Assembly (NCBI GenBank): GCA_007375725.1
Contig: VMEV01000002.1
Location: forward strand, 45,992-109,991
Source of the DNA: Parcubacteria group bacterium Greene0416_36
GTDB lineage: Bacteria; Patescibacteriota; Patescibacteriia; VMEV01
Length of the DNA stretch: 64,000 nucleotides
Direction: 5' to 3'
In this document: piece after piece, positions 5,364 through 61,966 of the stretch
Position numbering within the stretch: position 1 is the first letter of the stretch
How the letters are laid out: each line of letters opens with the position of its first letter
Translations under genes and position numbers: made by a program
Notes under the pieces: generated by a model
Told to the model about the DNA's origin: nothing
The model's database searches: none
Seen by the model: only the letters and a program-made list of their open reading frames with translations

Positions 5364-5382
5364 AAAACATTAGGGCAAAAAG

Positions 5383-5469: not shown

Positions 5470-5504
5470 TTTGATCATTAAATATCACTTTTTAAAAGAT
5501 AGAT

Positions 5505-6866
5505 ATGAAACATTTTTTGTTCATTCTTTCGCTTTTATTTGTCGCCCTCCCCGCCGCCGCCTTTACTCCTCTCGAACAGCAGTCGGTGGTCAAAATTGAA
5601 GTTTTTCGAAATGTGGGGGATCGGGACGCGGTACAGCAGGGGTCGGGGTTTTTTGTGAATTATGAGGGGTGTGCGGTCACCACGGCTCACGTGCTTTATA
5701 ACCAGCTTAATCGCAGTGAAGTATTTCCCGTGATTAAAATTTACGTGCCAGAAAATATCCGCAAGAATCCGGTCTCGCATGGATTGGCCGATATTCGTTA
5801 TTTGGATCCCAAACTCGATGTGGCGGTTGTGTGCCTTCGAGATCCTCACGGATTTTTTTATCATCCCTTATCTCTGCTTCCTGCTGGAGAATACAATAAT
5901 CTCGAGATTGGCGAACTCATGTATTTGGGAGGGTATCCCATTATCGGGGGATCGACTCCCGTGTATTCGCAGTCCCATATCGTAGGATTTTGGGACAATC
6001 CCAATTTATCCGAGCTCCTCAAACTCGATTATTTCGATGCGCAAAATATCACCTTGTTCAAGGTGGATGGGATCATGGGCCCCGGAGGTTCCGGCGGGCC
6101 GGTACTCTCTGCCAAGCGGGGTAATGCGGTGGTTGGCATGGTTTTCGCCTCCAGCCTCTCTCCCAGCGGCATCAATTTTCTGCTTTCCTCCGATACCATC
6201 CAAAAAGGTTTGGATACCTATCGTGCCGTAGAGAATCAAAAAGCCTCGACGGACTCGCCTTGCGTCTTTGATCCGGCCAAGGGGCTTTATGGGAAGAACG
6301 GGAAGGATTTTTATGATATGCTTTGTTCCCGCTTCCGTGACCCGAAAACTGAGCAGGTAGTATCTCTCAACTATGAGGACCGGTGCAAACGTCCTATGCC
6401 TCGCCAGCGGCTCTACGATGCCTCATCTTACATTATCTCAGGACGCGGGAATGTGGATTCTCTCTGGCAGTATTTGATTAAATTGTGTTCTCCCGAGCCC
6501 GCAGGGGCGAAAGACCCCTCGCCCCTGCCTTCTCCTCGAAATGGAGAAGTGTCGATCCCCAAAATAGGAGAGGGTTCTCTTTTAGTCGAGAAAATATTCG
6601 CTTATGGGAAACCCCGAGTGGAGGATTTGAAGACGGAACAGTCCGCCGCTCTGAAATTAAAAAGCGAATTGGTGAAAATTCTCGGCGCCAAAAATCTCAA
6701 AATCTCCGATAAAAATTGGTCATCCTTGGTCAATGCTTATGTCTACGGCCAATATCCCATCCCCGCCATCGCCCGCTCCATTCAGCTGGGCGGCTACACC
6801 GTCCACCCCCAAATTGCCTTTGGCGAGTGGAAGAAATCGGGGGATTATGCCAGGGGGATGAAATAG
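5505..6866 (+). CDS. secreted trypsin-like (S1-type) serine protease domain protein
   Basis: signal peptide; TAHVL histidine region and GPGGSGGPV serine motif. Confidence 0.55.
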   Translation: MKHFLFILSLLFVALPAAAFTPLEQQSVVKIEVFRNVGDRDAVQQGSGFFVNYEGCAVTTAHVLYNQLNRSEVFPVIKIYVPENIRKNPVSHGLADIRYLDPKLDVAVVCLRDPHGFFYHPLSLLPAGEYNNLEIGELMYLGGYPIIGGSTPVYSQSHIVGFWDNPNLSELLKLDYFDAQNITLFKVDGIMGPGGSGGPVLSAKRGNAVVGMVFASSLSPSGINFLLSSDTIQKGLDTYRAVENQKASTDSPCVFDPAKGLYGKNGKDFYDMLCSRFRDPKTEQVVSLNYEDRCKRPMPRQRLYDASSYIISGRGNVDSLWQYLIKLCSPEPAGAKDPSPLPSPRNGEVSIPKIGEGSLLVEKIFAYGKPRVEDLKTEQSAALKLKSELVKILGAKNLKISDKNWSSLVNAYVYGQYPIPAIARSIQLGGYTVHPQIAFGEWKKSGDYARGMK

Positions 6867-6883: not shown

Positions 6884-6976
6884 GCAACAAACCCATCCCT
6901 AACCCTTCCCTTAACAAGGAAGGGAACAGCAACAAACATCCCCCTTATTTAGGGGAGGAGGAGAGGGGTTTGTTGC
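6884..6976. repeat. MITE-like element copy 3 (diverged: CCCTTCCCTTAACAAGGAAGGG)
   Basis: same flank pattern GCAACAAAC...GGGGTTTGTTGC and hairpin halves; after protease gene. Confidence 0.6.
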
Positions 6977-6992
6977 TTACTTTCTATTATAT

Positions 6993-8426: not shown

Positions 8427-8533
8427 CTGAGTCACCTGCACTTTGCGGATGTCCTTTATTTGTAGAGACGCGCCATGGCGCGTCTCTACAAATAAAGGAC
8501 AAAATTCCGTAGCTTCCTAGGTGCAGGTGATTC
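8427..8533. mobile_element. 107 bp MITE-like element with 15 bp terminal inverted repeats and REP core GTAGAGACGCGCCATGGCGCGTCTCTAC, flanked by 11 bp direct repeat AGTTGTATTGG
   Basis: TIRs CTGAGTCACCTGCAC / GTGCAGGTGATTCAG; identical 11-mer at 8416-8426 and 8534-8544 (target-site-duplication-like). Confidence 0.6.
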
Positions 8534-9639: not shown

Positions 9640-9660
9640 TTTGATGAAAAAAACTATAAA

Positions 9661-9707
9661 AAAGTGTAAGGGGTCCGACGTTACGTCGGACCCCTTACAC
9701 TTTTTTT
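9661..9707. terminator. bidirectional intrinsic terminator hairpin (A-run / GTAAGGGGTCCGACG..CGTCGGACCCCTTAC / T-run)
   Basis: 20 bp stem, A-tract upstream and T-tract downstream, between convergent genes. Confidence 0.7.
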
Positions 9708-10278: not shown

Positions 10279-10308
10279 GGTAGGGGCACAGCGCGCTGTG
10301 CTCCTACC
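10279..10308. repeat. REP-like hairpin GGTAGGGGCACAGCGCGCTGTGCTCCTACC (A-run upstream, T-run downstream)
   Basis: GTAG...CTAC palindrome; related copies inside glycosyltransferase gene at 56169-56226. Confidence 0.55.
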
Positions 10309-19230: not shown

Positions 19231-19296
19231 GTTGTATGGTTTTTATTGGAAAATGGCTAGAGGAAGCTGATTATTTTTTTTATATCCGTGGCATTT

Positions 19297-19325
19297 GTAG
19301 GGACGTTGCATTGCAACGTCCCTAC
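19297..19325. repeat. REP-like hairpin GTAGGGACGTTGCATTGCAACGTCCCTAC (extended stem 19290-19332)
   Basis: perfect palindrome after kinase gene; near-identical copy at 59959-59986. Confidence 0.55.
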
Positions 19326-19376
19326 AAATGCCACTAATTTGTGCTTATCTACACCTTATCCACATTGTGAATTACT

Positions 19377-25919: not shown

Positions 25920-25930
25920 ACAACAAAAAA

Positions 25931-26017
25931 GGCATTAGGTTATTAGGTATTAGCTTCTTAGGAACAACAGAAACCGTGGCTGTTTCCTAATAAGCTAATG
26001 GCCTAACGCCTAATGCC
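25931..26017. terminator. long imperfect inverted repeat built from TTAGG/CCTAA units, A-run and T-run flanks (convergent terminator pyk/rnj)
   Basis: GGCATTAGGTTATTAGG...CCTAACGCCTAATGCC between two converging genes. Confidence 0.55.
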
Positions 26018-26027
26018 TTTTTTTGAG

Positions 26028-28261: not shown

Positions 28262-28272
28262 TTAATTTCTTG

Positions 28273-28300
28273 GTAAGGGCGTATTGCAATACGCCCTTAC
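28273..28300. repeat. REP hairpin GTAAGGGCGTATTGCAATACGCCCTTAC (family A), between SBP gene stop and tRNA-Leu
   Basis: identical 28-mer also inside and just after the RAYT gene (41268, 41569). Confidence 0.6.
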
Positions 28301-28307
28301 CAAGAAA

Positions 28308-30200
28308 TTATTTCCAAACTCGTTTTGTTTCAATATACCACTCACTGAGATTATTAAACCGGTCGCTGGGTTTGACGATATGATCGATATCGAAATTCTT
28401 GATGTCGTTCGACAAAATGTAGTTGTAGGTGGGGCTGTAAAGAAACAGCGCGGGAATTTCCCCCGATAGAATCTCTAGAAACTGTTTATATAATACTTCT
28501 CTCTGTGTCAAATCTTGATTTTGACGGGCATCGATGATAAGTTTATCGGCATTTTTGTCGGCAAAAGAGGTGAGGTTAAGTCCGGGGTCCTTGGCTTGAG
28601 AAGAATGCCAAAAAGCATAAGGATCGGGATCCAATCCGATATTTTGACCGTAGAGGAGGGCCTCATACTGCCGTTTTTTGATGATTTCTTTTTGTATTTT
28701 TGGGGCGTCAAATAATTTGAGCTCTACCTGCGCTCCAATTTTTTCCCAATAGTCTCGGATCAGTTCTGCTGCTTTTTTGTTTTCCGGATGATCTACCGTT
28801 GTAAGAGAGATGGAAAGAATATGGCCGTCTTTTTCACGGAAAAACTCTTGAGATATGGAGGGAGTTGCTGAATTTTCTAGAAAGGGTTCGAGTTCCTGAT
28901 CGGGTATGTTTTTGGGGTCTTTATCTGACAGTGCGGCGGGGAGGGTTTTATCTTTTTCCGAATCTTTTTTTGCGGCGAAGTTTTTTTCCATCCGGGTTCG
29001 GAGCTGTTTTATCGCTTGTTTTTTTTGCCTGTCTTTATACTCCTGCTGTGATATTTTCTGATATCCCGCCTCTTCGAGTAATTGATTGGCTTTTTGGGGA
29101 TCATAGGAGTCAGAGGGGGTTTGGGGGCCAAGAGATAAGAGGGGGTTATCAATCATTTTTCCTTGTTCTTCCAGCGCATAGTCAATGATTTTTTGTTTAG
29201 AAATCGCAAGTGACAGGGCCTGCCGGACGGTTTTGTTCTGGAGAATATTATTTTGATCTTGGTTGAAAAAAATGGCGGTATATTGAGGGAATGAGAGGGG
29301 GTGGGTAATCAAATGTTGGTTGCCCCTGATTGAGTCTTGTTCTTTTTGAGGCAAGAAATTGATGCCGTCGATTGTGCCATTTTGTATAGCGAGAGTGAGG
29401 TCGGTGGTATTTGCGAAAAAACGGAATTCAATTTTCTCTAGATAGGGTCTCTCTCCGTAAAAATTATCATTTCGGACTAGCGTATAAGATAAAATGGTTC
29501 CTTTCTTGTCTTTTTCTAGGGAATCAAACTTCCAAGGTCCGGAACCGATAGGTTTGCGATTATATTCCACGAGTTTCCAGTTTACAGCTGGGATTTCAGC
29601 CCAAATATGTTTGGGCAAAATCCCGAAAGTCAGGAGAGTGGGAAAAGGGGCGAAGGGCTTTTTGAGGGAAAATTTGAGCGTGTGGGGATCGATTTTTTGA
29701 TATTCTACTCCCCTGAGGCTTAGAAATAAAGGGCTTTGATAGGCCGGATCTAAAATGGCGTCAAGAGTAGCCACGACATCATCGGCATTAAATTTAGCCC
29801 CATCATGCCAATAGACATCTTGGCGCAGAGTGAGGGTGTAGATCAGGGAATCACTGGATATCTCGTAGTCGAGAGCCAGATCGGGTACGAGTTCTTGTTC
29901 TTTATTATATTTGAGCAATCCTGAATACACGAGGGAAGAGATATCATTGTCGATATCGCTGGTTTGAGAGAAGAGCGGATTCAAATAGAGCGGCGTGCCG
30001 ATGCTTCCTTCCGTATATTTGCCTCCCGATTGGGCGACTAGTTGTGTCCGGTTTAATATAAAAGAGGCTCCGATATAGGCGAAGCTCAACACAATAATAG
30101 AGAGCAGTATTTTTAACAGCAGATTTTCTCGGCGTGATAGAATTTTGGGCGTGCTGCGAATCTGTTTCCAAGTGGGAATTTTTTTTCTTTCCAAAAGCAT
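28308..30200 (-). CDS. extracellular solute-binding protein family 5 (OppA/DppA-like) with N-terminal membrane anchor
   Basis: SBP_bac_5-like core (YTLTLRQDVYWHDGAKFNADDVVATL); ORF-track N-terminus overlaps secG, true start likely Met ~30200. Confidence 0.6.
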   Translation of the reverse strand: MLLERKKIPTWKQIRSTPKILSRRENLLLKILLSIIVLSFAYIGASFILNRTQLVAQSGGKYTEGSIGTPLYLNPLFSQTSDIDNDISSLVYSGLLKYNKEQELVPDLALDYEISSDSLIYTLTLRQDVYWHDGAKFNADDVVATLDAILDPAYQSPLFLSLRGVEYQKIDPHTLKFSLKKPFAPFPTLLTFGILPKHIWAEIPAVNWKLVEYNRKPIGSGPWKFDSLEKDKKGTILSYTLVRNDNFYGERPYLEKIEFRFFANTTDLTLAIQNGTIDGINFLPQKEQDSIRGNQHLITHPLSFPQYTAIFFNQDQNNILQNKTVRQALSLAISKQKIIDYALEEQGKMIDNPLLSLGPQTPSDSYDPQKANQLLEEAGYQKISQQEYKDRQKKQAIKQLRTRMEKNFAAKKDSEKDKTLPAALSDKDPKNIPDQELEPFLENSATPSISQEFFREKDGHILSISLTTVDHPENKKAAELIRDYWEKIGAQVELKLFDAPKIQKEIIKKRQYEALLYGQNIGLDPDPYAFWHSSQAKDPGLNLTSFADKNADKLIIDARQNQDLTQREVLYKQFLEILSGEIPALFLYSPTYNYILSNDIKNFDIDHIVKPSDRFNNLSEWYIETKRVWK

Positions 30201-30719: not shown

Positions 30720-31505
30720 GTGGATTCTAAATGTAAAAATGCGTATAATGCCTTTGATCTTACCTCGGTTTATTTTATGGAAGAGCAAAAAAATCCTCCG
30801 GACCGGAAATTTATCTCACAAATCTTATTTTTCGCCCTTTTGTTTCTAGTTCTTGTGGCTGTGGGAGCTGGAATTGCTTTGTATTCATTTTTTCAATCTG
30901 AAAAGTCGCTGGGGCCTGGCGAATTATCCGGAGGCGCCATAACGGTCACCGAGTATGGGGATCCGGTGATCGGCCCGGCCAATGCTCTTATATCGGTCTA
31001 TGAATTCTCAGATTTTTCTTGCTCTTTCTGTCGCCAATCAGCTGATAGTCTTCGTTCCATATTGCTTCGCTACGATGGAAAGGTAAAATGGGTTTATAAA
31101 GATTTTCCGATTGCCTCGCTTCATCCCAACGCAATGATAGCCGCTATGGCTGGAGCCTGCGCCCATGAGCAGGGAAAATTCGTGGCCATGCACGATGCGA
31201 TTTTTGCCAATCAGCAATATCAAAGCCGTGAGAATTTGATCCGATACGCCAAAACCGTGGGCCTCGGCCAATCCCAGTTTATCGAGTGTTTGGATTCCAG
31301 CAAATTCCAGTCCGAGGTGGAGAGCGATTTGCGCGAAGGGATATCTCTCGGTGTCACTGCCACCCCCACTTGGTTCATCAATGGGCAGAAGATTGAAGGG
31401 GCGTTGTCGGAGGAGGAGCTGGCCAAGATATTTGATCAAATTCTTGGAGAAATTAAGAATGAAGAATTAAGAATGAACAGCCAATTCACTGTTGTTCATT
31501 CTTAA
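30720..31505 (+). CDS. membrane-anchored DsbA-like thioredoxin-fold thiol-disulfide oxidoreductase
   Basis: CSFC active-site CxxC, single N-terminal TM; possible start at MEEQKNP ~30777. Confidence 0.55.
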   Translation: MDSKCKNAYNAFDLTSVYFMEEQKNPPDRKFISQILFFALLFLVLVAVGAGIALYSFFQSEKSLGPGELSGGAITVTEYGDPVIGPANALISVYEFSDFSCSFCRQSADSLRSILLRYDGKVKWVYKDFPIASLHPNAMIAAMAGACAHEQGKFVAMHDAIFANQQYQSRENLIRYAKTVGLGQSQFIECLDSSKFQSEVESDLREGISLGVTATPTWFINGQKIEGALSEEELAKIFDQILGEIKNEELRMNSQFTVVHS

Positions 31506-31526
31506 TTCTTAATTCTTCATTGTTTT

Positions 31527-32441: not shown

Positions 32442-32490
32442 ACACATAAAAAATTGCAGGGGTAGGTTTCAAACTTACCCCTGTAATTTT

Positions 32491-33006
32491 TTATTCCACG
32501 ACCTCCGGCGCGAATTTCGGCAGTGGTCTATTATCAAAAAAATTGATTTCGGTGGCGTTGATTTCGGTTTCGTAGGTGAGGTCGTCGGTGGATGATATCT
32601 CTATATTGATTCCGGTTGTGAGAGAATTGATGGTTGGTGGATTATCTAGTGCGGGAAGAATGGGATTGTTTTTAAAAGCCACGGCGGTACTTAGAGACCA
32701 AGTTATTATTCTTTCGATGGGTGCTGGGATTCGGAGGGGGTGCAGTACGATTTGTGCCGTCTCTAGGACCATGGTTCGATTGGAAGCGTCCATGCTTCGG
32801 ATGATGCCTGAAATAGTATTGCTTGGCGCGGATGGATACAAATTATCCAAAAAATCGGTCGCTTGTTTTAGTTCGGAGCGTATTTTTTCTTTCTCCATTC
32901 TTTCCTGTCCGAGCCGGTGGTCCAGATTCCAGATGGCGTAACCTCCCGCAACCGATAGAGCGAGAAGACAAAAAAATACGAATAGATATTTGGCGGAAGG
33001 ATGCAT
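32491..33006 (-). CDS. hypothetical membrane-anchored protein
   Basis: N-terminal TM, 171 aa. Confidence 0.35.
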   Translation of the reverse strand: MHPSAKYLFVFFCLLALSVAGGYAIWNLDHRLGQERMEKEKIRSELKQATDFLDNLYPSAPSNTISGIIRSMDASNRTMVLETAQIVLHPLRIPAPIERIITWSLSTAVAFKNNPILPALDNPPTINSLTTGINIEISSTDDLTYETEINATEINFFDNRPLPKFAPEVVE

Positions 33007-36843: not shown

Positions 36844-36871
36844 AATTTGAGAGATTTTTTATAAAAAAATA

Positions 36872-36899
36872 GTAGAGACGCGCCATGGCGCGTCTCTAC
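36872..36899. terminator. REP hairpin GTAGAGACGCGCCATGGCGCGTCTCTAC flanked by A-run/T-run (bidirectional terminator, family C)
   Basis: perfect 28 bp palindrome between convergent small ORF and glyA; same core as 8462-8489. Confidence 0.6.
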
Positions 36900-36917
36900 T
36901 ATTTTTTTATGATCTCT

Positions 36918-39579: not shown

Positions 39580-39658
39580 TTTTTTGACACGGTAAGTTTG
39601 GATCGGGGATCTCAGGTCCCTAAAATTTTTTTATCGGTATTCACACGACCGCAAAAAA

Positions 39659-39688
39659 GGTAAGGGCTCAAAATTTTGAGCCCTTACC
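39659..39688. repeat. hairpin GGTAAGGGCTCAAAATTTTGAGCCCTTACC + T-run; core of ~100 bp repeat unit E (copy 1, ~39632-39733)
   Basis: whole ~100 bp unit duplicated at ~40274-40378. Confidence 0.55.
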
Positions 39689-39776
39689 TTTTTTAGATGG
39701 GGGGAATAATTTGAGAATAAAAAAATCAGAACCTTGGATGGTCTGAAATTTTGTGAGGTGGAGTAGTCCTCTGGTT

Positions 39777-40190: not shown

Positions 40191-40303
40191 GGTAGAGATA
40201 AAATACGAATTAATGATTAGGTCTTTAGGCCCGCTTTAGGGCGAAGTGGGAGGATCTCATCTACTTGGGGTCTCTTATCGATACTCACTTGACGGCTAAA
40301 AAA

Positions 40304-40333
40304 GGTAAGGGCTCAAAATTTTGAGCCCTTACC
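40304..40333. repeat. repeat unit E copy 2 hairpin GGTAAGGGCTCAAAATTTTGAGCCCTTACC
   Basis: identical to 39659-39688 including flanks. Confidence 0.55.
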
Positions 40334-40433
40334 TTTTTTAGCGGGGGGGGGAATAATTTTGGAATAAAAAAATCAGAATTTTCATTCTGAGTTTTTTGCG
40401 CCTAGATTTGCGGACGCGATTTTTATATTGCGA

Positions 40434-40865: not shown

Positions 40866-40922
40866 TTTTGTCAATATACCCATCCTCCCCATTATTTTGT
40901 AAGATAGGCGGGAATTGGGGAA
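40866..40922. repeat. 56-bp motif copy B, immediately 5' of RAYT start codon
   Basis: ends GGGAATTGGGGAAAT-ATG; ORF-track N-terminus (MSIYPSS...) is read-through of this motif. Confidence 0.5.
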
Positions 40923-40924
40923 AT

Positions 40925-41527
40925 ATGTCGGTCACATATGAATGGGAGCGGAAATCGATGAGACTTGTGGGCTATGATTATTCGAAGCCGGGGTTTTATT
41001 TTGTGACGGTTTTGACGAAGGATAGGGAATGTTTGTTTGGGGAGATTGAAGAGGGGGAGATGAGGTTGGGTGAGATGGGAAAGATTGCGGAGGGAGAGTG
41101 TTTGAAAACTTCGGAGATTCGAAAAAACATCAAGGTTGATTGTTTTGTGGTGATGCCAAATCATGTTCATGGGATTATTGAGATTATGGATGTTGACGGC
41201 GATCCGGGTAAGGACAATGTACTCGAGTCTCGACCTGGTAAGGGCACGGTGCTTGAGAGTCTACCCGGTAAGGGCGTATTGCAATACGCCCTTACCTCGA
41301 GTCGGGTGGGGTTTCGTTCTCCGTCCAATAATCTTGGTGCCGTGATCAGGGGATATAAATCATCAGTCACCAAACAAATCAATGACCTTCGTAATACCCC
41401 GTGCAATCCTGTCTGGCACCGCAACTACCACGATCACATCATCCGATCACTGGAGGAACTTGAAAATATCCGAGAGTATATAAAAAATAATCCACGAAGA
41501 TGGAAAGACGATCCGGAGAATGTTTAA
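40925..41527 (+). CDS. REP-associated tyrosine transposase (RAYT; IS200-like HuH transposase) carrying in-frame REP/tandem-repeat insert
   Basis: HuH motif MPNHVHGII, C-terminal WHRNYHDHIIRS...IREYIKNNPRRW; standalone, no IS ends recognised. Confidence 0.7.
   Translation: MSVTYEWERKSMRLVGYDYSKPGFYFVTVLTKDRECLFGEIEEGEMRLGEMGKIAEGECLKTSEIRKNIKVDCFVVMPNHVHGIIEIMDVDGDPGKDNVLESRPGKGTVLESLPGKGVLQYALTSSRVGFRSPSNNLGAVIRGYKSSVTKQINDLRNTPCNPVWHRNYHDHIIRSLEELENIREYIKNNPRRWKDDPENV
41204..41306 (+). repeat. three tandem ~30 bp repeats (CCnGGTAAGGnCAnnGTnCTnGAGnCTCnA), third containing REP GTAAGGGCGTATTGCAATACGCCCTTAC (41268-41295), in-frame inside RAYT
   Basis: encodes PGKDNVLESR / PGKGTVLESL / PGKGVLQYAL in the loop where RAYTs normally have a Gly-rich segment. 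Confidence 0.65.
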
Positions 41528-41568: not shown

Positions 41569-41596
41569 GTAAGGGCGTATTGCAATACGCCCTTAC
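41569..41596. repeat. REP GTAAGGGCGTATTGCAATACGCCCTTAC 42 nt downstream of RAYT stop
   Basis: third identical copy of family A. Confidence 0.6.
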
Positions 41597-41788: not shown

Positions 41789-44773
41789 ATGCAAGAACAA
41801 AAAAAATCCTTCCTCTCTGAAATAGAGGAAAAAATACTCGAATTTTGGGACAAAGACAAAACATTTGAGAAGTCGGTAAACGAGCGGCCGGAATCAAAGC
41901 CTTATGTCTTTTATGACGGGCCTCCTTTTGCGACCGGTCTCCCTCATTATGGACATATCTTGGCGTCGACTTCCAAGGATATGGTTCCGCGATACTGGAC
42001 CATGAAAGGGTATCGGGTGGAGCGGCGGTGGGGATGGGATTGTCATGGCCTTCCGATCGAAAACATCGCTGAAAAGGAACTCAAAATCAGTGGCAAAAAA
42101 GCGATTGAGGAGATGGGCATTGATAAATTCAACGAGTTTTGCCGATCGAAAGTGCTCACTTATGCCAAGGATTGGGGGACAATAGTGCGTCGCATCGGCC
42201 GATGGGTGGATTTTGATAATGCCTACATGACCATGGATAATTCGTATATCGAGTCCGTGTGGTGGGCATTCAAGCAAATGCATGGAAAGGGCCTGATATA
42301 CGAAGGCAAAAAAGTGCTTCTCTACTGCTCCCGCTGTGAGACGCCGATTTCGAATTTCGAGATAGCGATGGATAATAGTTATAAGGATGTGGAGGAGGAA
42401 ACCGCTATCGCGAAATTAAAAATTAAAAATGAAAAATTAAAAATTGGAACAACAAATAATACTTACTTTTTGGCGTGGACGACGACACCGTGGACCCTAG
42501 TAGGGAATTTGGCATTGGCGATCAATAAAGATTTTGAATATGTGGTGGTGGCGAAAGATGGGATGAATGAGCAAATGATCTTGGCTAAGTCGGCATTTGA
42601 AAAACAGCAGGATTTGTATGCGGGATATTCGGTGGTGGAAACAGTTCGGGGGGAGAAACTATTAGATTTGGAATATGAACCGCTCTACGAGATGAATGCG
42701 GGCGGCAAGCGGGGATTTTATGCTTTGGATGGGGGAGCGGATGTGACTGCGGATGATGGAACGGGTATGGTCCATATGGCCATGTATGGTGAGTTCGACT
42801 ATGAAATGGCCAAGAAATATGATTTGCCTCAGATCATTCATTTGGATGAAATGGGAAAACTCAAAGAAGGGCCGGAAGCTTGGAAAGGCGTTTATTTCAA
42901 GAAATTGAATGGTTTGGTTTTGGAAGATCTCAAAAGTCGGGGACTTTTATTTGCTTCTCCGAAACATAGTCATTCGTATCCATTCTGTTATCGCTGTGCC
43001 ACGCCACTCTATTACGCGCCGATCCCGGCTTGGTTTATCGCCGTATCTAAAATCAAATCTCGTCTCCTCGAACTAAACGCGACGGGAAAAAATACCAATG
43101 GCAAAGATGTGGGCATCAATTGGGTACCGGATCATCTCAAGGAGGGCCGGTTCAAGAACAGTCTCGAAGGCGCGCCGGACTGGAATATTTCCAGAAACCG
43201 TTATTGGGCCTCTTCGATTCCCGTGTGGAAATGCGTGGATTGCGGAAAGCAGGAAGTTTTCGGATCCGTACAAGAATTGCGAGATAAGGCGACCAATCTC
43301 AAAGAATTAGGCTTGGAAAAAGCCGAGATCGATCTGCACAAACATGTTGTGGATAAAATATTGGTGGAGTGTGAGTGTGGTAAATCGATGCATCGTATTC
43401 CCGAAGTCATTGACTGCTGGGTGGAAAGCGCGTCCATGCCTTTCGCGGCGGAACATTACCCCTTCGAAAATGCTAAAAAATTCGAGCATTCATTTCCAGC
43501 TCAATTTGTCAGCGAATATATCGCTCAAACCCGGGCGTGGTTCTACGTTTGTCTTGTTCTCTCTGGAGCAGTATTCGACAAGATTCCTTTTGAAAATGTG
43601 GTGGTGACTGGTACGATCATGGCCGAGGATGGCACGAAAATGTCCAAATCTAAAGGGAATTATCCGGATCCCATGGGACTGATCAACCGTTTTGGTGTCG
43701 ATGCTCTGCGTCTCTATCTCATGTCTTCTCCTGTAATGAAAGGCGAATCCCTCAATTTTTCTGAGAAAGGCGTGGATGAAATGGCCAAGAAAGTCGTGAT
43801 GCTCTTGTATAATGTGGTGAATTTTTATGAGTTGTTTGTAACAAATCCCCCTCGGTCCCCCTTTGACAAGGGGGAAGAGGGTGTTGTTTCCCCCTCCCTT
43901 GTCAAAGGGAGGGTTGGGGTGGGATTTGTTGCCTCTACCCCATCGACAGGAAACATTCTCGACCGCTGGATCCTGTCCAAATTGAATACTCTGATTACTG
44001 AGATGACCGAAAAATATGATCGCTATGAACTAGTCGATGGCACGCGGCTGCTTCCTTCCTTCATCGATGAACTCTCCACCTGGTATGTCCGCCGTTCGCG
44101 GGACCGGTTTAAGGGGGAGGATGAGGCGGATCGACAAAGCGCTTTAGCGACTCTGGGTTTTGTTTTGTCGGAGCTTTCTAAACTGCTGGCTCCCGTTGCG
44201 CCCTTTACGGCTGAACAGGTTTGGATGCGGCTGGGTAATAAAACCTCGGTGCATTTGGAACCGTGGCCGGTCGCCAGTAAGGGCGTGGATGAAAAAGTGG
44301 TGGAAGAGATGGATTTTGTCCGAAAAATTGTCGAAGATGTTCATCGCCAGCGCGCAGAAGCGGGCGTGAAGGTGCGACAACCTCTTGGAAAAGTAGAATT
44401 AACTCTTCCTTTCGGACTTTCTCGAGATTTGGTTGATATTTTGAAAGATGAAGTGAATGTACTCGAAGTGATTCAGAAAAAAGGGGAGTGGAAAGTAGCG
44501 CTTGATACTCAACTTACTGAAGAACTTAAAAAAGCTGGAATGTTTCGAGAACTGGTCCGCCAGATCAACGGCATGCGAAAGGAATCAGGACTCTCGATCG
44601 GTGATTTTGTCACCATGGAATACCTCTCTGATCCTCAATTATCTGCTTGGATTGAATCTAATCGCGAGATATTAGCCAAACAGGTTTTGGCTTCGAAGAT
44701 TGTGGCGGGAGGGGATGGAGGGAAGGAACTGGATTTGGATGGGAAGAAGTTGGTGTGGAAAATTGTGAAATAA
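41789..44773 (+). CDS. ileS: isoleucyl-tRNA synthetase carrying in-frame MITE-derived 31-aa insert
   Basis: HIGH variant PHYGHIL, KMSKS, editing and anticodon-binding regions; insert at 43841-43932. Confidence 0.9.
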   Translation: MQEQKKSFLSEIEEKILEFWDKDKTFEKSVNERPESKPYVFYDGPPFATGLPHYGHILASTSKDMVPRYWTMKGYRVERRWGWDCHGLPIENIAEKELKISGKKAIEEMGIDKFNEFCRSKVLTYAKDWGTIVRRIGRWVDFDNAYMTMDNSYIESVWWAFKQMHGKGLIYEGKKVLLYCSRCETPISNFEIAMDNSYKDVEEETAIAKLKIKNEKLKIGTTNNTYFLAWTTTPWTLVGNLALAINKDFEYVVVAKDGMNEQMILAKSAFEKQQDLYAGYSVVETVRGEKLLDLEYEPLYEMNAGGKRGFYALDGGADVTADDGTGMVHMAMYGEFDYEMAKKYDLPQIIHLDEMGKLKEGPEAWKGVYFKKLNGLVLEDLKSRGLLFASPKHSHSYPFCYRCATPLYYAPIPAWFIAVSKIKSRLLELNATGKNTNGKDVGINWVPDHLKEGRFKNSLEGAPDWNISRNRYWASSIPVWKCVDCGKQEVFGSVQELRDKATNLKELGLEKAEIDLHKHVVDKILVECECGKSMHRIPEVIDCWVESASMPFAAEHYPFENAKKFEHSFPAQFVSEYIAQTRAWFYVCLVLSGAVFDKIPFENVVVTGTIMAEDGTKMSKSKGNYPDPMGLINRFGVDALRLYLMSSPVMKGESLNFSEKGVDEMAKKVVMLLYNVVNFYELFVTNPPRSPFDKGEEGVVSPSLVKGRVGVGFVASTPSTGNILDRWILSKLNTLITEMTEKYDRYELVDGTRLLPSFIDELSTWYVRRSRDRFKGEDEADRQSALATLGFVLSELSKLLAPVAPFTAEQVWMRLGNKTSVHLEPWPVASKGVDEKVVEEMDFVRKIVEDVHRQRAEAGVKVRQPLGKVELTLPFGLSRDLVDILKDEVNVLEVIQKKGEWKVALDTQLTEELKKAGMFRELVRQINGMRKESGLSIGDFVTMEYLSDPQLSAWIESNREILAKQVLASKIVAGGDGGKELDLDGKKLVWKIVK
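43841..43932. repeat. MITE-like element copy 4, inserted in-frame within ileS coding sequence
   Basis: ACAAATCCCC..CCCTTTGACAAGGGGG..CCCTCCCTTGTCAAAGGGAGGG..GGGATTTGTTGC; 93 bp = 31 codons, translated as ...PFDKGEEGVVSPSLVKGRVG... Confidence 0.75.
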
Positions 44774-50549: not shown

Positions 50550-51611
50550 ATGTCGCATCCACACAAAAATAAAAAACGTTTTTTTTTAATGGGATTGGGA
50601 GGGTGCTGCGGATTTGTAGCTCTTGGATTATTTTTATTCTCCGCGGCTTCTCCTTTTGGCGTATTTCAGTCTGCCATATCGAATCGAGATATCAAAAAGG
50701 ACAGCGAGCTTGTCGCCGCGGTCCCCCAGATATCTCGATTTTTAGATGGCGTGAAAGTGAACCAAGGGAAAGAAAATCACTTTCCCATCGCCGCCATGAT
50801 TGAGAATCATACCGAAGCCCGTCCCCAGTCCGGCCTTGCTAAGGCTCAGCTGGTTTTCGAGGCGCCTGTGGAAGGCGGCATCACCCGATTTTTAGCCGTG
50901 TTCACGGATTATTCGAGAGTGGAGAAAATGGGTCCGGTTCGTTCCGCGCGTCCCTACTATTTGGATTGGGCTATGGAATTTGACCCCCTGTATCTCCATG
51001 TCGGAGGAAGCGAGGATGCGCTTGATAAGTTGAAGCAAATCGGCATCCGCGATCTCGATCAGTATTTCGAGTACCAATATTATTGGCGTTCTCCGTCTCG
51101 AGCCGCGCCCCACAATGTCTACACTTCCGGCGAGCTTCTTGGCCGCGCTCTTCGAGACAAGGATCTCGAAGGCAAGACGGGTAATTTCACCCCGTGGAAA
51201 TTCGCGGACGCGGGCATGGACGGTGGGGTGGAAACTTCTTCCGTGAAAATTTCTTTTTCTTCTCCGGAATACGAAGTGAATTGGAAATATGACGCGGCGA
51301 AAAAGTCCTATGCCCGTTTTTACGGAACTGTCCTTCATACGGACGAAGACGGGACTGCGATCGAGGCGAAAAATATCGCACTTCTGTACACTCCGATTTT
51401 AATTATCGATGAAGTGGGCCGCCGCAGTGTCGAGACCTTGGGCACTGGCCGCGCCGTTATTTTTCAAAATGGAAAAGCCTTTGAAGGGACATGGGAGAAA
51501 CTGAACCGTAAATCGCGCCTCCGATTTTTTGTGAATGAAAAAGAGGTGGAATTCGTGCCCGGGGCGACTTGGGTGGAGGTGGTGTCGAAGACTTTTGATA
51601 TTGCGTGGTAA
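50550..51611 (+). CDS. secreted or lipoprotein, possibly DUF3048 (YerB-like) family
   Basis: signal peptide; EAPVEGGITRFLAVF-type motif; family call from memory. Confidence 0.4.
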   Translation: MSHPHKNKKRFFLMGLGGCCGFVALGLFLFSAASPFGVFQSAISNRDIKKDSELVAAVPQISRFLDGVKVNQGKENHFPIAAMIENHTEARPQSGLAKAQLVFEAPVEGGITRFLAVFTDYSRVEKMGPVRSARPYYLDWAMEFDPLYLHVGGSEDALDKLKQIGIRDLDQYFEYQYYWRSPSRAAPHNVYTSGELLGRALRDKDLEGKTGNFTPWKFADAGMDGGVETSSVKISFSSPEYEVNWKYDAAKKSYARFYGTVLHTDEDGTAIEAKNIALLYTPILIIDEVGRRSVETLGTGRAVIFQNGKAFEGTWEKLNRKSRLRFFVNEKEVEFVPGATWVEVVSKTFDIAW

Positions 51612-51613
51612 GA

Positions 51614-51699
51614 ACAACAAATCCCTCCCCAACCCTCCCTTTGACAAGGGAGGGGGTGGCCTCCCCCTTGTCAAAGGGGGATTGAGGGGGATTTGTTGC
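51614..51699. repeat. MITE-like element copy 6, between DUF3048-like gene and pilin gene
   Basis: CAACAAATCCCTCCCCAACCCTCCCTTTGACAAGGGAGGGGGTGGCCTCCCCCTTGTCAAAGGGGGATTGAGGGGGATTTGTTGC. Confidence 0.8.
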
Positions 51700-51708
51700 T
51701 TCAAATAT

Positions 51709-55237: not shown

Positions 55238-57343
55238 ATGAATTTTCTCGGAAAAATTTCCGTCATCATCGCCTGCTTCAACTATGGCCGATTCATTGAA
55301 GAGGCCATTGAGAGTGTCCTGGAATCCACGTTTCAGGATTTTGAAATTGTGGTGGTGGATGACGGGTCTACAGATCCGGAGACGATTCGAGTGCTGGACG
55401 CGCTGGATCATCCAAGAATTCGATTGGTTCGACAGAAAAATCAGGGGCTCGCTATGGCTCGTAATAATGGCATAGAGGCGAGTTTCGGCGAGTATTTTTT
55501 GCCTCTGGACGCGGATGATAAAATTGCGCCGACGATGCTGGAAAAGTTTGTTGCCGTACTGGAAACTCGGCCTGATGTGGGGTTTGTTTATTCGTGGATT
55601 CAATTTTTTGGAGATGAAAATCGGGTTTTTAAAACTCAGGACGCGGATTTGAGCATTCTTCGCGAAGAAAATATCTGCTGTGGGTGTTCTTTGGTTCGAA
55701 AAGAGGCGTGGCGCGAGGTCGGGGGCTATGTTCCGGGTCTCTACGGGTACGAAGACTGGAATCTGTGGATTACTCTCGTTGAGAATGGCTGGCTGGGGGT
55801 TTCGATTCCCGAGATCCTTTTCTATTACCGTCGCCACGGCAAAACCATGCTCGCCGACGGCCAGAGCCGGCACTGGTATTTGATGGGGGAGATGGGGAAG
55901 TTGCATGCCCCCATGATCAGTGAGGGCGCACACATAGGTGCGCCCCTACGGGAGGGGGTTGCTTTGGTAAAAAAATTCCAAAATAAACTCACCTCCGAAG
56001 ACCTCCTCAATTGGCGCCTCTGGAAACAGTCTCCCTGGTACATGGCCAAGCGCACAATTCCCAATGGGATTAAATGGAAGGTCAAAGTCGTGTATTGGAA
56101 GATCAAGTCTTTATTTTTGAGGGGGAAAAAAGAGGCGGCGAGGCGCGAGATTTTGGCGGGGGTGGCGCGTAGGGGCACAGCGCGCTTGTCCGCCGTAGCT
56201 TTAGCGAAGGAGGGCTGTGCCCCTACGCGGGGTGAAGGGGTAACCAAAAAATCCATTCTCTATATCCTCCCCACCGTCTCGGTTGGCGGGGTTGAAAAGA
56301 CCGCGCTTGATACGATTCAGGCACTCCGAGGCGAGTTTGATTTCACGATTATTGTCAGTCAAAAAGGCGAGCACGCTTGGGCAGAGGCCTTCCGATCGGC
56401 AGGGGCACAGCTATTTTTTCTTGAAGACATTCGCGACCCATCACTGTGGGTCGAATTGCTACGGGGGGTGATTGCATTACGGAGAATCGAAGTGATTCAT
56501 ATCGCGAATTCGATTTGGGGCTATAGCCAAACCGCTTGGATTAAGGAGAAGTTCCCACATATCCGCATCATCGATATTTTTCAGGGTGGGGAAGTGGAAG
56601 GGGGCGTGATCGGCTGGAATCGGCAGTTCGAGGGGAATATCGACCAAACGATCGTCGTGAATTCCGGATTGTTCGAGAAATTGATCCATAAAGGCTCGCC
56701 GAGGGAGAAATTCATTTGTATTCCCAATGGCGTGTCGCTCTTGAAATTTTCTCGGGATAAAGTGGTTGTATCCGGAGAAGAGATTCGTTGGAAATGGGGA
56801 TTGCCTCTAGACCGTCCTATTATTTCTTTTGTCTCCCGTCTGTCTTCTGAAAAGAATCCTCTTTTTTTTCTTGAAGTCGCCAAAGCCATCCATGCCGCGC
56901 GTACGGGTGCCTTTTTTGTGGTTGCCGGATCGGGATATTTGCAGGATTTATTTTTAAATAAAAGAGCGGAGTTGAAACTGGAACATTCTCTCCGGTATTT
57001 TCCTCATCTACAGAATATTCCCGAACTGCTCAGCGTTTCATCGGTACTGGTCAATACGTCACTGACCGAAGGCTGGTCGGTGGCGATTCTGGAGGCTATG
57101 GCCATGGAAGTGCCGGTGGTGGCGTCTCGGATCTGGCAGAATGCGGCCTTGGTGGAAGAAGGGAAAACCGGACTCTTGGCTGATCTGGGCAATGTGAATG
57201 CTTATCGAGACTCGATTTTGCAGGTGCTGGATGATCCTTATTTATCCGGAGCGTTGGCTCTGAATGCGCGCAAAAAAGTGGTCGAGGAATATGGAATAGC
57301 AAAAATGGCGTCGAGGTATCGGGATTTGTATTTTTCCTATTAA
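55238..57343 (+). CDS. glycosyltransferase fusion: family 2 (N) + family 1/GT4 (C), linker containing REP-like sequences
   Basis: GT2 VVDDGS...DADD; GT4 C-term EGWSVAILEAMAMEVPVVAS; REP-like at 55924-55947 and 56169-56226. Confidence 0.65.
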   Translation: MNFLGKISVIIACFNYGRFIEEAIESVLESTFQDFEIVVVDDGSTDPETIRVLDALDHPRIRLVRQKNQGLAMARNNGIEASFGEYFLPLDADDKIAPTMLEKFVAVLETRPDVGFVYSWIQFFGDENRVFKTQDADLSILREENICCGCSLVRKEAWREVGGYVPGLYGYEDWNLWITLVENGWLGVSIPEILFYYRRHGKTMLADGQSRHWYLMGEMGKLHAPMISEGAHIGAPLREGVALVKKFQNKLTSEDLLNWRLWKQSPWYMAKRTIPNGIKWKVKVVYWKIKSLFLRGKKEAARREILAGVARRGTARLSAVALAKEGCAPTRGEGVTKKSILYILPTVSVGGVEKTALDTIQALRGEFDFTIIVSQKGEHAWAEAFRSAGAQLFFLEDIRDPSLWVELLRGVIALRRIEVIHIANSIWGYSQTAWIKEKFPHIRIIDIFQGGEVEGGVIGWNRQFEGNIDQTIVVNSGLFEKLIHKGSPREKFICIPNGVSLLKFSRDKVVVSGEEIRWKWGLPLDRPIISFVSRLSSEKNPLFFLEVAKAIHAARTGAFFVVAGSGYLQDLFLNKRAELKLEHSLRYFPHLQNIPELLSVSSVLVNTSLTEGWSVAILEAMAMEVPVVASRIWQNAALVEEGKTGLLADLGNVNAYRDSILQVLDDPYLSGALALNARKKVVEEYGIAKMASRYRDLYFSY
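56169..56226. repeat. interrupted REP-like palindrome GTAGGGGCACAGCGCGC...GCTGTGCCCCTAC inside glycosyltransferase ORF
   Basis: arms match 10280-10307 hairpin; read in-frame as ...RRGTARLSAVALAKEGCAPTRG... Confidence 0.55.
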
Positions 57344-59931: not shown

Positions 59932-59958
59932 TGATTTTGTTTTAAACGTCGACCATTG

Positions 59959-59986
59959 AGTAGGGACGTTGGATGCAACGTCCCTA
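59959..59986. repeat. REP-like hairpin GTAGGGACGTTGGATGCAACGTCCCTAC (family B copy 2)
   Basis: 28 nt after hydrolase stop; near-identical to 19297-19325. Confidence 0.55.
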
Positions 59987-60136
59987 CTCAATGGTCTGAC
60001 ATTGACTCATCACCCTTTCTTTTATAGACTAAAACAATTATTAAATTTGGATTTTTGAGATTCTGTTGTTTCTAGATCCTGAATCCTTCCGCCAAAGGCG
60101 GATCCGCCTTTGGCGGAAAATCCTGAATCCTAATCT

Positions 60137-61903: not shown

Positions 61904-61920
61904 GACATGTAAGGCAAAAA

Positions 61921-61966
61921 ACTGTAAGGGCTCCGATGTTACATCGGAGCCCTTACAGTTTTTTTA
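61921..61966 (+). terminator. intrinsic terminator ACTGTAAGGGCTCCGATGT-TA-ACATCGGAGCCCTTACAGT + T7
   Basis: 19 bp stem right after aspS; GTAAGGG..CCCTTAC ends like the REP family. Confidence 0.7.

What the first reader, a model, noticed from the sequence alone, without database searches (positions are those of the whole stretch)
55924..56226. GT2-GT4 glycosyltransferase fusion with REP-like palindromes translated in the linker
The single 701-aa ORF joins a family-2 glycosyltransferase domain (to ~55920) and a GT4 domain (from ~56250). Between them lie a REP remnant (GGGCGCACATAGGTGCGCCCCTAC, 55924-55947) and an interrupted REP (GTAGGGGCACAGCGCGC...GCTGTGCCCCTAC, 56169-56226), both read in-frame. 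This raises the possibility that REP-mediated insertion or recombination fused two formerly separate GT genes. At minimum the REPs are tolerated as coding linker.
Basis: partly seen in the sequence, partly recalled or inferred. Interest (0 to 1): 0.65.

Follow-up and report, generated by a model that had tools for sequence, protein, structure and literature searches.

The report
REP palindromes translated inside glycosyltransferase linker
A two-domain sugar-transferase gene of a Parcubacteria (CPR) bacterium carries two small mobile-type DNA palindromes that are read as protein in its flexible linker. The two domains were already joined long before, so this is one more example of a known phenomenon, not a new way of fusing genes.

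Summary
ORF 55238-57343 (701 aa) is GT2 (aa 8-216) plus GT4 (aa 349-692). Its linker contains a degenerate GTAG-type palindrome (55924-55949) and a perfect 16-bp-arm palindrome (56166-56229), both read in frame. The second is the intergenic palindrome at 10280-10307 plus a 30-nt loop insert.

The window holds about 13 more GTAG/GTAAG-headed palindromes. Nearly all are intergenic, just 3' of genes. A RAYT-like transposase gene lies at 40868-41527.

The fusion idea is not supported:
- The best relatives of both domains are the same GT2-linker-GT4 proteins (P0004, P0007; also a Paenibacillus protein).
- Stand-alone GT4 proteins are more distant.
- The 213 nt between the palindromes has normal coding codon usage, whereas the palindromes are GC-rich islands with non-coding-like usage.
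- The linker is 21-75 aa longer than in homologues.
- Both palindromes fall in the AlphaFold low-confidence segments.

Best reading: secondary in-frame REP insertions into a permissive linker of an anciently fused enzyme. No empty site was found, because no close orthologue exists in the databases. Intragenic GTAG REPs, double insertions and long-loop variants were described by Di Nocera et al. 2013. I rate this a new member of a known kind, of low to moderate interest.

The parts
55238..57343 (+). Intact 701-aa ORF: bifunctional GT2-GT4 glycosyltransferase
   Evidence: Identical protein in the NCBI MAG of Parcubacteria group bacterium Gr01-1014_18 and in independent Logan assemblies. The DxD motif (DADD, aa 91-94) lies in columns invariant across homologues. 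An EX7E motif (EGWSVAILE, ending at E619, a near-invariant column) is read directly from the translation.
55259..55885 (+). GT2 (GT-A fold) domain, aa 8-216
   Evidence: Pfam PF00535 E 7.7e-31, plus PF10111, PF13641 and PF13632. pLDDT mostly 80-97.
55916..56239 (+). Interdomain linker, aa 227-334. It is an orphan sequence of low structural confidence.
   Evidence: pLDDT <50 at aa 227-283 and 309-334, and 55-61 for the basic amphipathic helix around aa 284-308. No homologue among 1.84 billion representative proteins. No significant similarity to homologues' linkers. Longest linker of the family: 146 aa between aa 205 and 350, against 71-125 aa in homologues.
55924..55949 (.). REP1: a degenerate GTAG-type palindrome, GGGCGCAC-acatag-GTGCGCCC-CTAC, translated as aa 229-238 (GAHIGAPL..)
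   Evidence: (I11). The head on the + strand is mutated (GTGA instead of GTAG). The full arm GTAGGGGCGCAC occurs in Nostoc and Chloroflexia loci, and as a complete palindrome in L094. GC 0.70; codon log-odds -0.29.
56166..56229 (.). REP2: a perfect 16-bp-arm GTAG palindrome with a 32-nt loop, translated as aa 310-331 (ARRGTARLSAVALAKEGCAPTR)
   Evidence: I2; -42.7 kcal/mol. GC 0.70; codon log-odds 0.08. It coincides with the low-confidence segment aa 309-334.
56184..56213 (.). 30-nt nested insert in the REP2 loop (GCTTGTCCGCCGTAGCTTTAGCGAAGGAGG). It is a copy of a widespread mini-hairpin motif.
   Evidence: Absent from the twin at 10280-10307. Unique within the window. There it often sits inside the loops of other REP families.
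55952..56164 (+). Native coding part of the linker, between the two palindromes
   Evidence: Codon-usage log-odds 0.314 in frame, against -0.53 and -0.04 in the other frames. GC 0.48, the same as the two domains.
56282..57313 (+). GT4 (GT-B fold) domain, aa 349-692
   Evidence: Pfam PF13439, PF00534 and PF13692. pLDDT mostly 86-98.
10280..10307 (.). Intergenic short-loop twin of REP2 (GTAGGGGCACAGCGCGCTGTGCTCCTAC), flanked by an A-run and a T-run
   Evidence: I12; -31.7 kcal/mol, z -7.6. It lies between divergent ORFs.
40868..41527 (+). RAYT-like (REP-associated tyrosine transposase) gene, the candidate mobilising enzyme
   Evidence: NCBIfam NF047646 REP_Tyr_transpos, E 6.7e-18, 65 bits (below the 80-bit cutoff), matched in two stretches. 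Pfam Y1_Tnp E 6.5e-4. HUH motif PNHVHGII and C-terminal WHRNYHDHII..IREYIKNNP. GTAAGGGCGTATTGCAATACGCCCTTAC occurs inside the gene (41268-41295) and just downstream (41569-41596).

Best explanation
The gene encodes an anciently fused bifunctional glycosyltransferase. An N-terminal GT2 (GT-A fold) domain and a C-terminal GT4 (GT-B fold) domain are joined by a long, poorly conserved, basic and helical linker.

In this Parcubacteria lineage the linker-coding DNA acquired two GTAG-headed REP-type palindromes. These are the same kind of element that sits just 3' of many genes in this genome. Such elements are thought to be spread by a RAYT (HUH/Y1) transposase acting on single-stranded hairpins, and a RAYT-like gene lies 15 kb away in the window.

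One copy (REP1) has since decayed at its head. The other (REP2) is a long-loop variant that carries a second widespread mini-hairpin nested in its loop.

Only insertions that left the frame open, and that fell in a structurally permissive segment, could survive selection. They are now translated as roughly 10 and 22 extra residues of flexible tether, which makes this the longest linker in the family.

Shown: the palindromes, their family relations, in-frame translation, the ancient fusion, the compositional contrast and the low structural confidence. Inferred: that they arrived by insertion (no empty site was seen), that a RAYT moved them, that the protein is made and active, and that the extra residues are neutral.
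For: Palindromes and their intergenic twin.

Family behaviour: 12 of 16 GTAG/GTAAG/GCAGG-headed palindromes in the window are intergenic, although 88% of the window lies in ORFs (binomial P about 1e-8). The same GTAGGGGCACAGC..GCTGTGCCCCTAC palindrome occurs in Cyanobacteria, Acidobacteriota, Chloroflexota, Nitrospirota and others.

RAYT-like gene.

Ancient fusion: colinear full-length homologues; the same proteins rank among the best hits for both domains; stand-alone GT4 proteins are more distant.

Insertion signature:
- The linker is 21-75 aa longer than in homologues.
- REP1 falls where the query has 7 extra residues relative to the LKELKKxW region of homologues.
- Homologue linker DNA lacks GC-rich palindromes.
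- The REPs are GC 0.70 with codon scores of -0.29 and 0.08, whereas the flanks and the inter-REP stretch are GC 0.48-0.50 with scores of 0.31.
- The REP-coded residues lie in segments with pLDDT <50.
- Only the used frame is open through both elements.

A second palindromic family sits in frame in the IleRS gene of the same window, at a gap relative to solved IleRS structures.

Precedent: intragenic in-frame GTAG REPs encoding 20-30 aa, double insertions in one ORF, insertions in tRNA synthetase genes and long self-complementary loops are described in PMC3733652.
Against: No orthologue closer than 37% identity exists in the databases searched. No 'empty site' allele was seen, and the insertion boundaries cannot be fixed.

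The linker cannot be aligned to homologues' linkers (z -0.9 to 1.0) and has no homologue anywhere. Only length and position support insertion, not residue-level alignment. For REP2 the closest homologues (P0004, P0019) show no gap at that place.

The core lengths (26-28 nt and 58-64 nt) are not multiples of three. Each event must therefore have involved extra gain or loss of bases.

The palindromes here pair GTAG with CTAC. Classic REPs have an unpaired GTAG tag.

The RAYT-like gene is flanked by GTAAGGGC-type palindromes, not GTAGGGGC-type. It scores below the NCBIfam cutoff.

Expression of the protein is untested.
Confidence: 0.8

Rival explanations
1. GT2 and GT4 were separate adjacent genes with REPs in the spacer. 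REP insertion or REP-REP recombination removed the stop and start codons and fused them, so the linker is former intergenic DNA.
For: In this genome, REP-type palindromes normally sit in intergenic DNA just 3' of genes. The linker is an orphan sequence with no detectable homologue. Many relatives of the GT2 domain are stand-alone proteins of about 400 aa.
Against: The same GT2-linker-GT4 order is present in distant homologues, including a Firmicute, with colinear full-length alignments. P0004 and P0007 are top-ranking hits for both domains, and fused-protein GT4 domains score 111-191 bits against at most 102 bits for stand-alone GT4 proteins. The 213 nt between the REPs has typical in-frame coding codon usage (0.314 against a coding mean of 0.29). 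If the whole 306-nt REP-to-REP block were new, only about 44 aa of linker would remain, which is shorter than any homologue's (71-125 aa).
Confidence: 0.07
2. The palindromes are functional RNA or DNA signals kept inside the gene. One option is an mRNA hairpin that pauses ribosomes between the two domains, or that stabilises or attenuates the transcript. Another is a pair of RAYT target sites that permit excision or rearrangement of the linker or the GT4 module.
For: REP2 keeps 16/16 perfect pairing with a predicted -42.7 kcal/mol, even though it is translated. Both elements sit exactly at the domain boundaries. REPs elsewhere are reported to affect mRNA stability (PMC3733652).
Against: There is no T-tract, and only chance-level terminator-like signals in this region: the sole hit touching a palindrome is a 5-bp stem at 55943-55957 overlapping the 3' end of REP1, and 5 sites were found against 3.4 expected. 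REP1 is already degenerate. The REP2 fold is only z -2.5 against shuffles of its own GC-rich sequence. There is no conservation data. Perfect arms are equally explained by a recent insertion.
Confidence: 0.08
3. Artefact: either a chimeric assembly that joined two genes at a repeat, or a decaying pseudogene whose long ORF is accidental.
For: The source is a metagenome-assembled genome. Repeats can mislead assemblers. A 143-aa reverse-strand ORF (55825-56256) also spans the linker.
Against: The identical 701-aa product was recovered from independent assemblies of different runs, with the same neighbours on both sides. The palindromes are only 26-64 nt long. Both domains are complete in Pfam and confidently folded. 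The DxD motif sits in invariant alignment columns, and an EX7E motif is visible in the translation. Codon usage is coding-like throughout, apart from the palindromes.
Confidence: 0.03

Closest known systems
Intragenic GTAG-tagged REPs (Di Nocera, De Gregorio & Rocco 2013, BMC Genomics 14:522; PMC3733652)
   Same: Small GC-rich palindromes with a GTAG head. They are mostly intergenic and 3' of genes, but some lie wholly inside ORFs and are read in frame. Inserts encode about 20-30 aa. Some ORFs carry two insertions, and tRNA synthetase genes are among the targets. Long self-complementary loop variants exist alongside short-loop ones. RAYT genes are flanked by the repeats.
   Different: The host here is a Parcubacteria (CPR) bacterium, a group not among the 8 phyla that paper surveyed. 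The target is the interdomain linker of a glycosyltransferase. GTAG is paired with CTAC (a full palindrome) rather than being an unpaired tag. Many distinct stem sequences occur at low copy number in the 64-kb window, rather than one abundant family.
Rickettsia palindromic elements (RPE-1 and relatives; Ogata et al. 2000, from my own knowledge; mentioned in PMC3733652)
   Same: Palindromic mobile-type repeats inserted in frame in protein-coding genes of a small genome. They add a peptide segment that the protein tolerates, typically at surface or linker positions.
   Different: RPE-1 elements are longer (about 100-150 bp) and belong to other sequence families. The roughly 95-nt element found here inside the IleRS gene (43835-43935) is the closer analogue. 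The GT linker elements are REP-sized.
REP/REPIN-RAYT systems (Nunvar 2010 PMC2817692; Bertels & Rainey 2011; Ton-Hoang 2012; Corneloup 2021 PMC8266576)
   Same: GTAG-headed hairpins together with a single-copy HUH/Y1 transposase gene that is itself flanked by its repeats.
   Different: No REPIN doublet structure was seen for REP1 and REP2: they lie 216 nt apart and are separated by native coding sequence. The RAYT-like gene's own repeats have a GTAAGGGC head. Mobilisation was not tested.
Small dispersed repeats nested inside other repeats in cyanobacteria (Elhai et al. 2008, Genome Res 18:1484; PMC2527708; from my own knowledge and the reference list seen)
   Same: A mini-element of about 30 nt inserted inside another small repeat, here in the loop of REP2. 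The same mini-hairpin is nested in unrelated REP families across metagenomes.
   Different: The sequence family is different. It was found here in soil, groundwater and other metagenomes rather than being restricted to Nostocales. No mobility evidence beyond its distribution.
Multidomain glycosyltransferases such as chondroitin polymerase K4CP (PDB 2z86/2z87)
   Same: Two catalytic GT domains on one chain. K4CP is the best solved match to the GT2 domain (E 2.2e-24).
   Different: K4CP matched only the GT2 domain of the query, and from my own knowledge it is a GT2-GT2 enzyme. No solved GT2-GT4 protein was found by sequence. The substrate and product of this enzyme are unknown.

Membership tests
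GTAG-tagged REP (repetitive extragenic palindrome) | Short (20-40 bp) GC-rich imperfect palindrome able to form a stem-loop | tested here: met
   REP1 is 26 nt with an 8-bp stem. The REP2 core is 28 nt plus a 30-nt loop insert, with 13-16-bp arms.
GTAG-tagged REP (repetitive extragenic palindrome) | GTAG tetranucleotide at one end, unpaired in classic families | tested here: inconclusive
   GTAG/CTAC is present at both ends of REP2 and at the 3' end of REP1. The left head of REP1 reads GTGA. Here GTAG pairs with CTAC and is part of the stem, unlike the unpaired tag described in PMC3733652.
GTAG-tagged REP (repetitive extragenic palindrome) | Repeated in the genome, predominantly extragenic and 3' of ORFs | tested here: met
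   About 13 further GTAG/GTAAG-headed palindromes in 64 kb. Of 16 in all, 12 are intergenic, with 88% of the window in ORFs. The exact REP2 type has one other copy in the window. The genome-wide copy number could not be counted.
GTAG-tagged REP (repetitive extragenic palindrome) | Associated RAYT (HUH/Y1) transposase gene flanked by the repeats | tested here: inconclusive
   A RAYT-like ORF lies at 40868-41527, with NF047646 E 6.7e-18 but 65 bits against an 80-bit cutoff. HUH and Y motifs are present, and GTAAGGGC palindromes sit inside and downstream of it. Its repeats differ in head and stem from REP1 and REP2.
GTAG-tagged REP (repetitive extragenic palindrome) | Cleavage or mobilisation by the RAYT | not testable with these tools
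   Needs biochemistry, or comparison of populations with and without the insertion.
GT2 (GT-A fold) glycosyltransferase | Pfam Glycos_transf_2 domain above the gathering score, with a DxD motif | tested here: met
   PF00535 scores 107.7 bits against a 23.3-bit cutoff. D91, D93 and D94 are invariant across 26 homologues.
GT4 (GT-B fold) glycosyltransferase | Pfam Glyco_transf_4 N-terminal half plus Glycos_transf_1 C-terminal half above the gathering scores; EX7E motif | tested here: met
   PF13439 scores 33.7 bits against 28.5. PF00534 scores 99.3 bits against 26.4. EGWSVAILE (E611..E619) is read directly from the translation, and E619 is a near-invariant alignment column.
Conserved fused GT2-linker-GT4 module | Same domain order in homologues, with both domains most similar to the same proteins | tested here: met
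Conserved fused GT2-linker-GT4 module | Homologous linker sequence | tested here: not met
   The linker shows no significant similarity to homologues' linkers. It has no homologue in 1.84 billion representative proteins. Linkers are also weakly conserved among the homologues themselves.

The most novel reading that the evidence does not exclude
The two palindromes that bracket the linker are not passive passengers. As RAYT-recognisable hairpins placed exactly at the two domain boundaries, they could act as recombination or excision sites. That would let the linker or the GT4 module be swapped or removed, giving switchable architecture of a surface-glycan enzyme. Alternatively, they could act as strong mRNA hairpins that pace translation between the two domains. 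More broadly, REP- and MITE-derived peptides (here and in IleRS) may be a regular source of new linker sequence in minimal CPR genomes.
Probability: 0.06. Interest if true: 0.6.

Novelty: new member of a known kind. Interest (0 to 1): 0.27.

Why it matters
The evidence says they did not: the fusion is old.

What remains is a clean example of mobile-type palindromes becoming translated sequence in a permissive linker. It comes from a CPR bacterium, a group for which one full-text literature search pairing 'Candidate Phyla Radiation' with 'repetitive extragenic palindromic' found no description of REP/RAYT systems.

It is of practical use for annotation. Odd GC-rich peptides such as GAHIGAPL or RGTARLSAVALAKEGCAPT in CPR proteins are REP translations, not domain features.

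It also adds a data point on how small genomes tolerate selfish hairpins, including one inside an essential gene (IleRS) in the same window.

Tried and rejected
(1) I looked for close orthologues to find an empty site. The word-indexed search of 5.8 billion proteins gave nothing between 100% and 37% identity, so the decisive comparison could not be made.

(2) I tried to align the linker to homologues' linkers and tested the scores against shuffles. The result was not significant. I therefore dropped the claim that the linker is homologous and rely on architecture, length and per-domain best hits.

(3) An exhaustive HMMER search with the linker alone (aa 217-345) returned only the protein itself and one marginal hit with no aligned stretch.

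(4) The GT4-only protein search did not return the query's own protein or P0004. Its candidate sampling is evidently incomplete. I re-scored everything locally on one scale instead.

(5) I searched the window and 248 fetched loci for another copy of the 30-nt loop insert. There were no other copies in the window, but the metagenome scan showed the motif is widespread.

(6) I scanned for internal terminators or promoters that could split expression. Only chance-level matches were found.

(7) I considered a REPIN (inverted REP pair) reading of REP1 plus REP2. I rejected it because the 216-nt spacer is native coding sequence.

(8) I considered REP1-linker-REP2 as one inserted block. I rejected it on residual linker length and codon usage.

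(9) Literature searches for the Elhai 2008 paper did not find it in the searchable library. Searches for REPs in CPR found nothing relevant.
Full report
**What is there.** The window comes from Parcubacteria group bacterium Gr01-1014_18 (GCA_007379055.1, contig VMHD01000001.1). ORF 55238-57343 (+) encodes 701 aa. Pfam finds a GT2 domain at aa 8-216 (PF00535, E 7.7e-31) and a GT4 domain at aa 349-692 (PF13439 plus PF00534, E 2.4e-28).

I predicted the structure with AlphaFold, using an alignment of 26 homologues. Both domains fold confidently, with pLDDT mostly 86-98. Residues 227-283 and 309-334 fall below pLDDT 50, and a basic amphipathic helix in between reaches 55-61.

**The palindromes.**
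- REP1 is GGGCGCAC-ACATAG-GTGCGCCC-CTAC at 55924-55949.
- REP2 has perfect 16-nt arms at 56166-56181 and 56214-56229, around a 32-nt loop.
- GTAGGGGC occurs 5 times in the window against 0.75 expected.
- REP2 matches the intergenic palindrome at 10280-10307 (GTAGGGGCACAGC-GC-GCTGTGCTCCTAC) over its first 18 nt and its right arm. REP2 is thus that element with 30 extra nt (56184-56213) in its loop.
- Both elements are translated, as aa 229-238 and aa 310-331. On the + strand the frame in use is the only open one through each element.
- Independent assemblies from different sequencing runs encode the identical protein in the same gene neighbourhood, so a misassembly is unlikely.

**What kind of element.** A hairpin survey of the window found about 13 further palindromes with GTAG, GTAAG or GCAGG heads. 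They fall into several stem families, for example GTAGAGACGCGCCA|TGGCGCGTCTCTAC (two copies), GTAGGGACGTTGCA.. (two), GTAAGGGCGTATTG.. (three) and GTAAGGGCTCAAAA.. (two). Many are flanked by A-runs and T-runs.

Against a simple ORF map, 12 of 16 are intergenic, although 88% of the window lies in ORFs (P about 1e-8). Most sit just 3' of genes.

ORF 40868-41527 is RAYT-like:
- It carries the HUH motif PNHVHGII and a C-terminal WHRNYHDHII...IREYIKNNP.
- NCBIfam REP_Tyr_transpos matches at E 6.7e-18, although the 65-bit score is below the 80-bit cutoff and the match is split in two.
- Copies of GTAAGGGCGTATTGCAATACGCCCTTAC lie inside it and just downstream.

The full REP1 arm occurs in Nostoc and Chloroflexia loci. 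These are therefore GTAG-type REPs in the sense of Di Nocera et al. 2013 (PMC3733652). One difference is that GTAG here pairs with CTAC, whereas in the classic families it is an unpaired tag.

**The loop insert.** The 30-nt insert has no other copy in the window. There it commonly sits inside the loops of unrelated REP families, for example between GTAGGGTGGGCAAAGCGA and AGCGTGCCCACC, or between CGTCATTGCGAGGAGCGA and AGCGACGAAGCAATCC. REP2 is therefore a long-loop, nested variant. Di Nocera et al. describe long self-complementary loops of up to 27 bp in GTAG-14 REPs. Elhai et al. 2008 described nested mini-repeats in cyanobacteria (from my own knowledge).

**Was the fusion made by the REPs?** The evidence says no.
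- *Full-length homologues.* They share the GT2-linker-GT4 order and align colinearly over 98-100% of the query. They are P0004 (683 aa, 37%), P0007 (665 aa, 35%), P0018 (667 aa, 31%) and P0014 from Paenibacillus assamensis (674 aa, 30%). The module also sits inside larger proteins (P0002, P0003, P0022, P0030).
- *Per-domain scoring.* P0004 and P0007 are at or near the top for GT2 (55% and 53%) and clearly at the top for GT4 (33% and 31%).
- *Stand-alone GT4 proteins.* A separate search with the GT4 domain found them only at 97 bits or less. Re-scored on one scale, fused-protein GT4 domains reach 111-191 bits and stand-alone proteins at most 102 bits.
- *Homologue DNA.* The linker DNA of P0004 and P0007 contains no GC-rich palindromes.
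- *Codon usage.* I trained a model on 29 long ORFs of the window. The 213 nt between the REPs scores 0.314 log2 odds per codon in frame. That equals GT2 (0.305) and GT4 (0.313), against a coding mean of 0.29. REP1 scores -0.29 and REP2 0.08. The REPs are GC 0.70 and their surroundings GC 0.48-0.50.

The palindromes are therefore foreign islands in otherwise ordinary coding sequence, and the stretch between them is not former intergenic DNA.

**Evidence that they are insertions, and its limits.** Between the invariant H223 and L341 the query has 119 aa, against 78-98 aa in the full-length homologues (52 aa in the truncated P0027). Between aa 205 and 350 it has 146 aa, against 71-125 aa. The roughly 30 REP-coded residues account for much of the excess. 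REP1 falls where the query has 7 extra residues next to the LKELKKxW motif of homologues. The REP-coded residues lie in the low-confidence segments, and REP2 (aa 310-331) nearly coincides with segment 309-334.

The limits are real:
- The linker shows no significant similarity to any homologue's linker (z -0.9 to 1.0).
- It has no homologue among 1.84 billion representative proteins.
- At REP2 the closest homologues show no gap.
- No empty-site allele exists in the databases.
- The core element lengths are not multiples of three, so the original events cannot be reconstructed.

**Function.** The protein is most likely an active bifunctional enzyme that adds two different sugar linkages in synthesis of a surface glycan. 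This rests on established knowledge of the GT2 and GT4 families. The DxD motif lies in invariant alignment columns, and an EX7E motif is visible in the translation. The best solved matches are chondroitin synthase K4CP for GT2, and PglA, TarM and BshA-type enzymes for GT4.

The REP-coded residues most likely act as neutral tether. A regulatory role for the strong REP2 hairpin (-42.7 kcal/mol) cannot be excluded. However, there is no T-tract and only chance-level terminator-like matches.

**Comparison with what is known.** Di Nocera et al. 2013 already report the following:
- GTAG and CGTC REPs lying wholly inside ORFs.
- Inserts encoding about 20-30 aa.
- Two insertions in one ORF.
- tRNA synthetase genes among the targets.

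Rickettsia palindromic elements are the classic in-frame case. The present case adds a CPR host and a glycosyltransferase linker as target. A full-text search pairing 'Candidate Phyla Radiation' with 'repetitive extragenic palindromic' found no description of REPs in CPR. I rate it a new member of a known kind.

**A parallel case in the same window.** A second palindromic family of about 95 nt has five copies. One copy (about 43835-43935) lies in frame in the isoleucyl-tRNA synthetase gene, between the catalytic and anticodon-binding domains. At that spot solved IleRS sequences show a gap of 16 plus 2 residues. This supports the general picture that this small genome tolerates palindromic repeats in permissive interdomain positions.

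**Verdict.** The minimal interpretation, that REPs are translated as linker, is supported. The fusion-by-REP interpretation is not supported. Interest is low to moderate.

Noticed in passing
window 43835-43935 (inside ORF 41789-44773); other copies ~1965-2060, ~5375-5475 (reverse), ~6928-6977 (degenerate), ~51610-51700: There is a second palindromic repeat family of about 95 nt (AACAAATCCCTCCCC..CCCTTTGACAAGGG..CCCTTGTCAAAGGG..GGGGGATTTGTTG). Four copies lie just after genes. One lies in frame inside the isoleucyl-tRNA synthetase gene, between the catalytic and anticodon-binding domains, and encodes ~TNPPRSPFDKGEEGVVSPSLVKGRVGVGFVA. Solved IleRS sequences have a gap of 16+2 residues there.
   Followed up: partly
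window 40868-41527, with palindromes at 41268-41295 and 41569-41596: A RAYT-like (REP-associated tyrosine transposase) gene carries GGTAAGG-headed repeats, including a perfect 28-nt palindrome, in frame between its HUH and tyrosine motifs. The same palindrome occurs again just downstream. A third copy of this palindrome is at 28273-28300.
   Followed up: partly
window 8450-8501, 9658-9706, 19288-19334, 28263-28310, 32446-32494, 36861-36910, 39653-39694, 40295-40342, 59951-59996, 61916-61964: Many perfect palindromes of 40-52 nt have GTAG, GTAAG or GCAGG heads but different stems. They sit in intergenic DNA just 3' of genes, and several are flanked by an A-run on one side and a T-run on the other, like bidirectional terminators. 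The copies inside the GT gene lack these A/T runs.
   Followed up: partly
It is typically nested in the loops of several unrelated REP families, for example GTAGGGTGGGCAAAGCGA.. and CGTCATTGCGAGGAGCGA... Its origin and means of spread are unexplained.
   Followed up: partly
loci L009-L128 (genome contigs): The exact 13-nt-arm palindrome GTAGGGGCACAGC..GCTGTGCCCCTAC occurs in genomes of many phyla (Nostoc and other Cyanobacteria, Terriglobia, Chloroflexota, Nitrospirota, Gemmatimonadota, Zixibacteria, Acetothermia). Some Nostoc and Calothrix genomes hold many copies. I did not examine whether this reflects shared RAYT specificity, horizontal spread or convergence.
   Followed up: no
window 6501-6528 (inside ORF 5505-6866): A GCAGGGGCGA-aagacccc-TCGCCCCTGC hairpin is translated as ..PAGAKDPSPLP.., C-terminal to the Trypsin_2 domain of a 453-aa protease-like ORF. 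It may be another intragenic palindrome.
   Followed up: no
window 55825-56256 (- strand): A 143-aa reverse-strand ORF covers almost exactly the linker region. It is probably spurious, kept open by the GC-rich palindromes. It contains the REP-derived peptides RRGAPMCAP and RVGAQPSFAKATADKRAVPL, of the kind often seen in 'hypothetical protein' annotations.
   Followed up: no
window 25925-26023 and 31451-31524: There are two long AT-rich inverted repeats. One has 40-nt arms at 80% complementarity with A-run and T-run ends. The other has 29-nt arms at 93% built from AAGAAT/TAAGAAT units. Both lie at gene ends. They were not examined.
   Followed up: no
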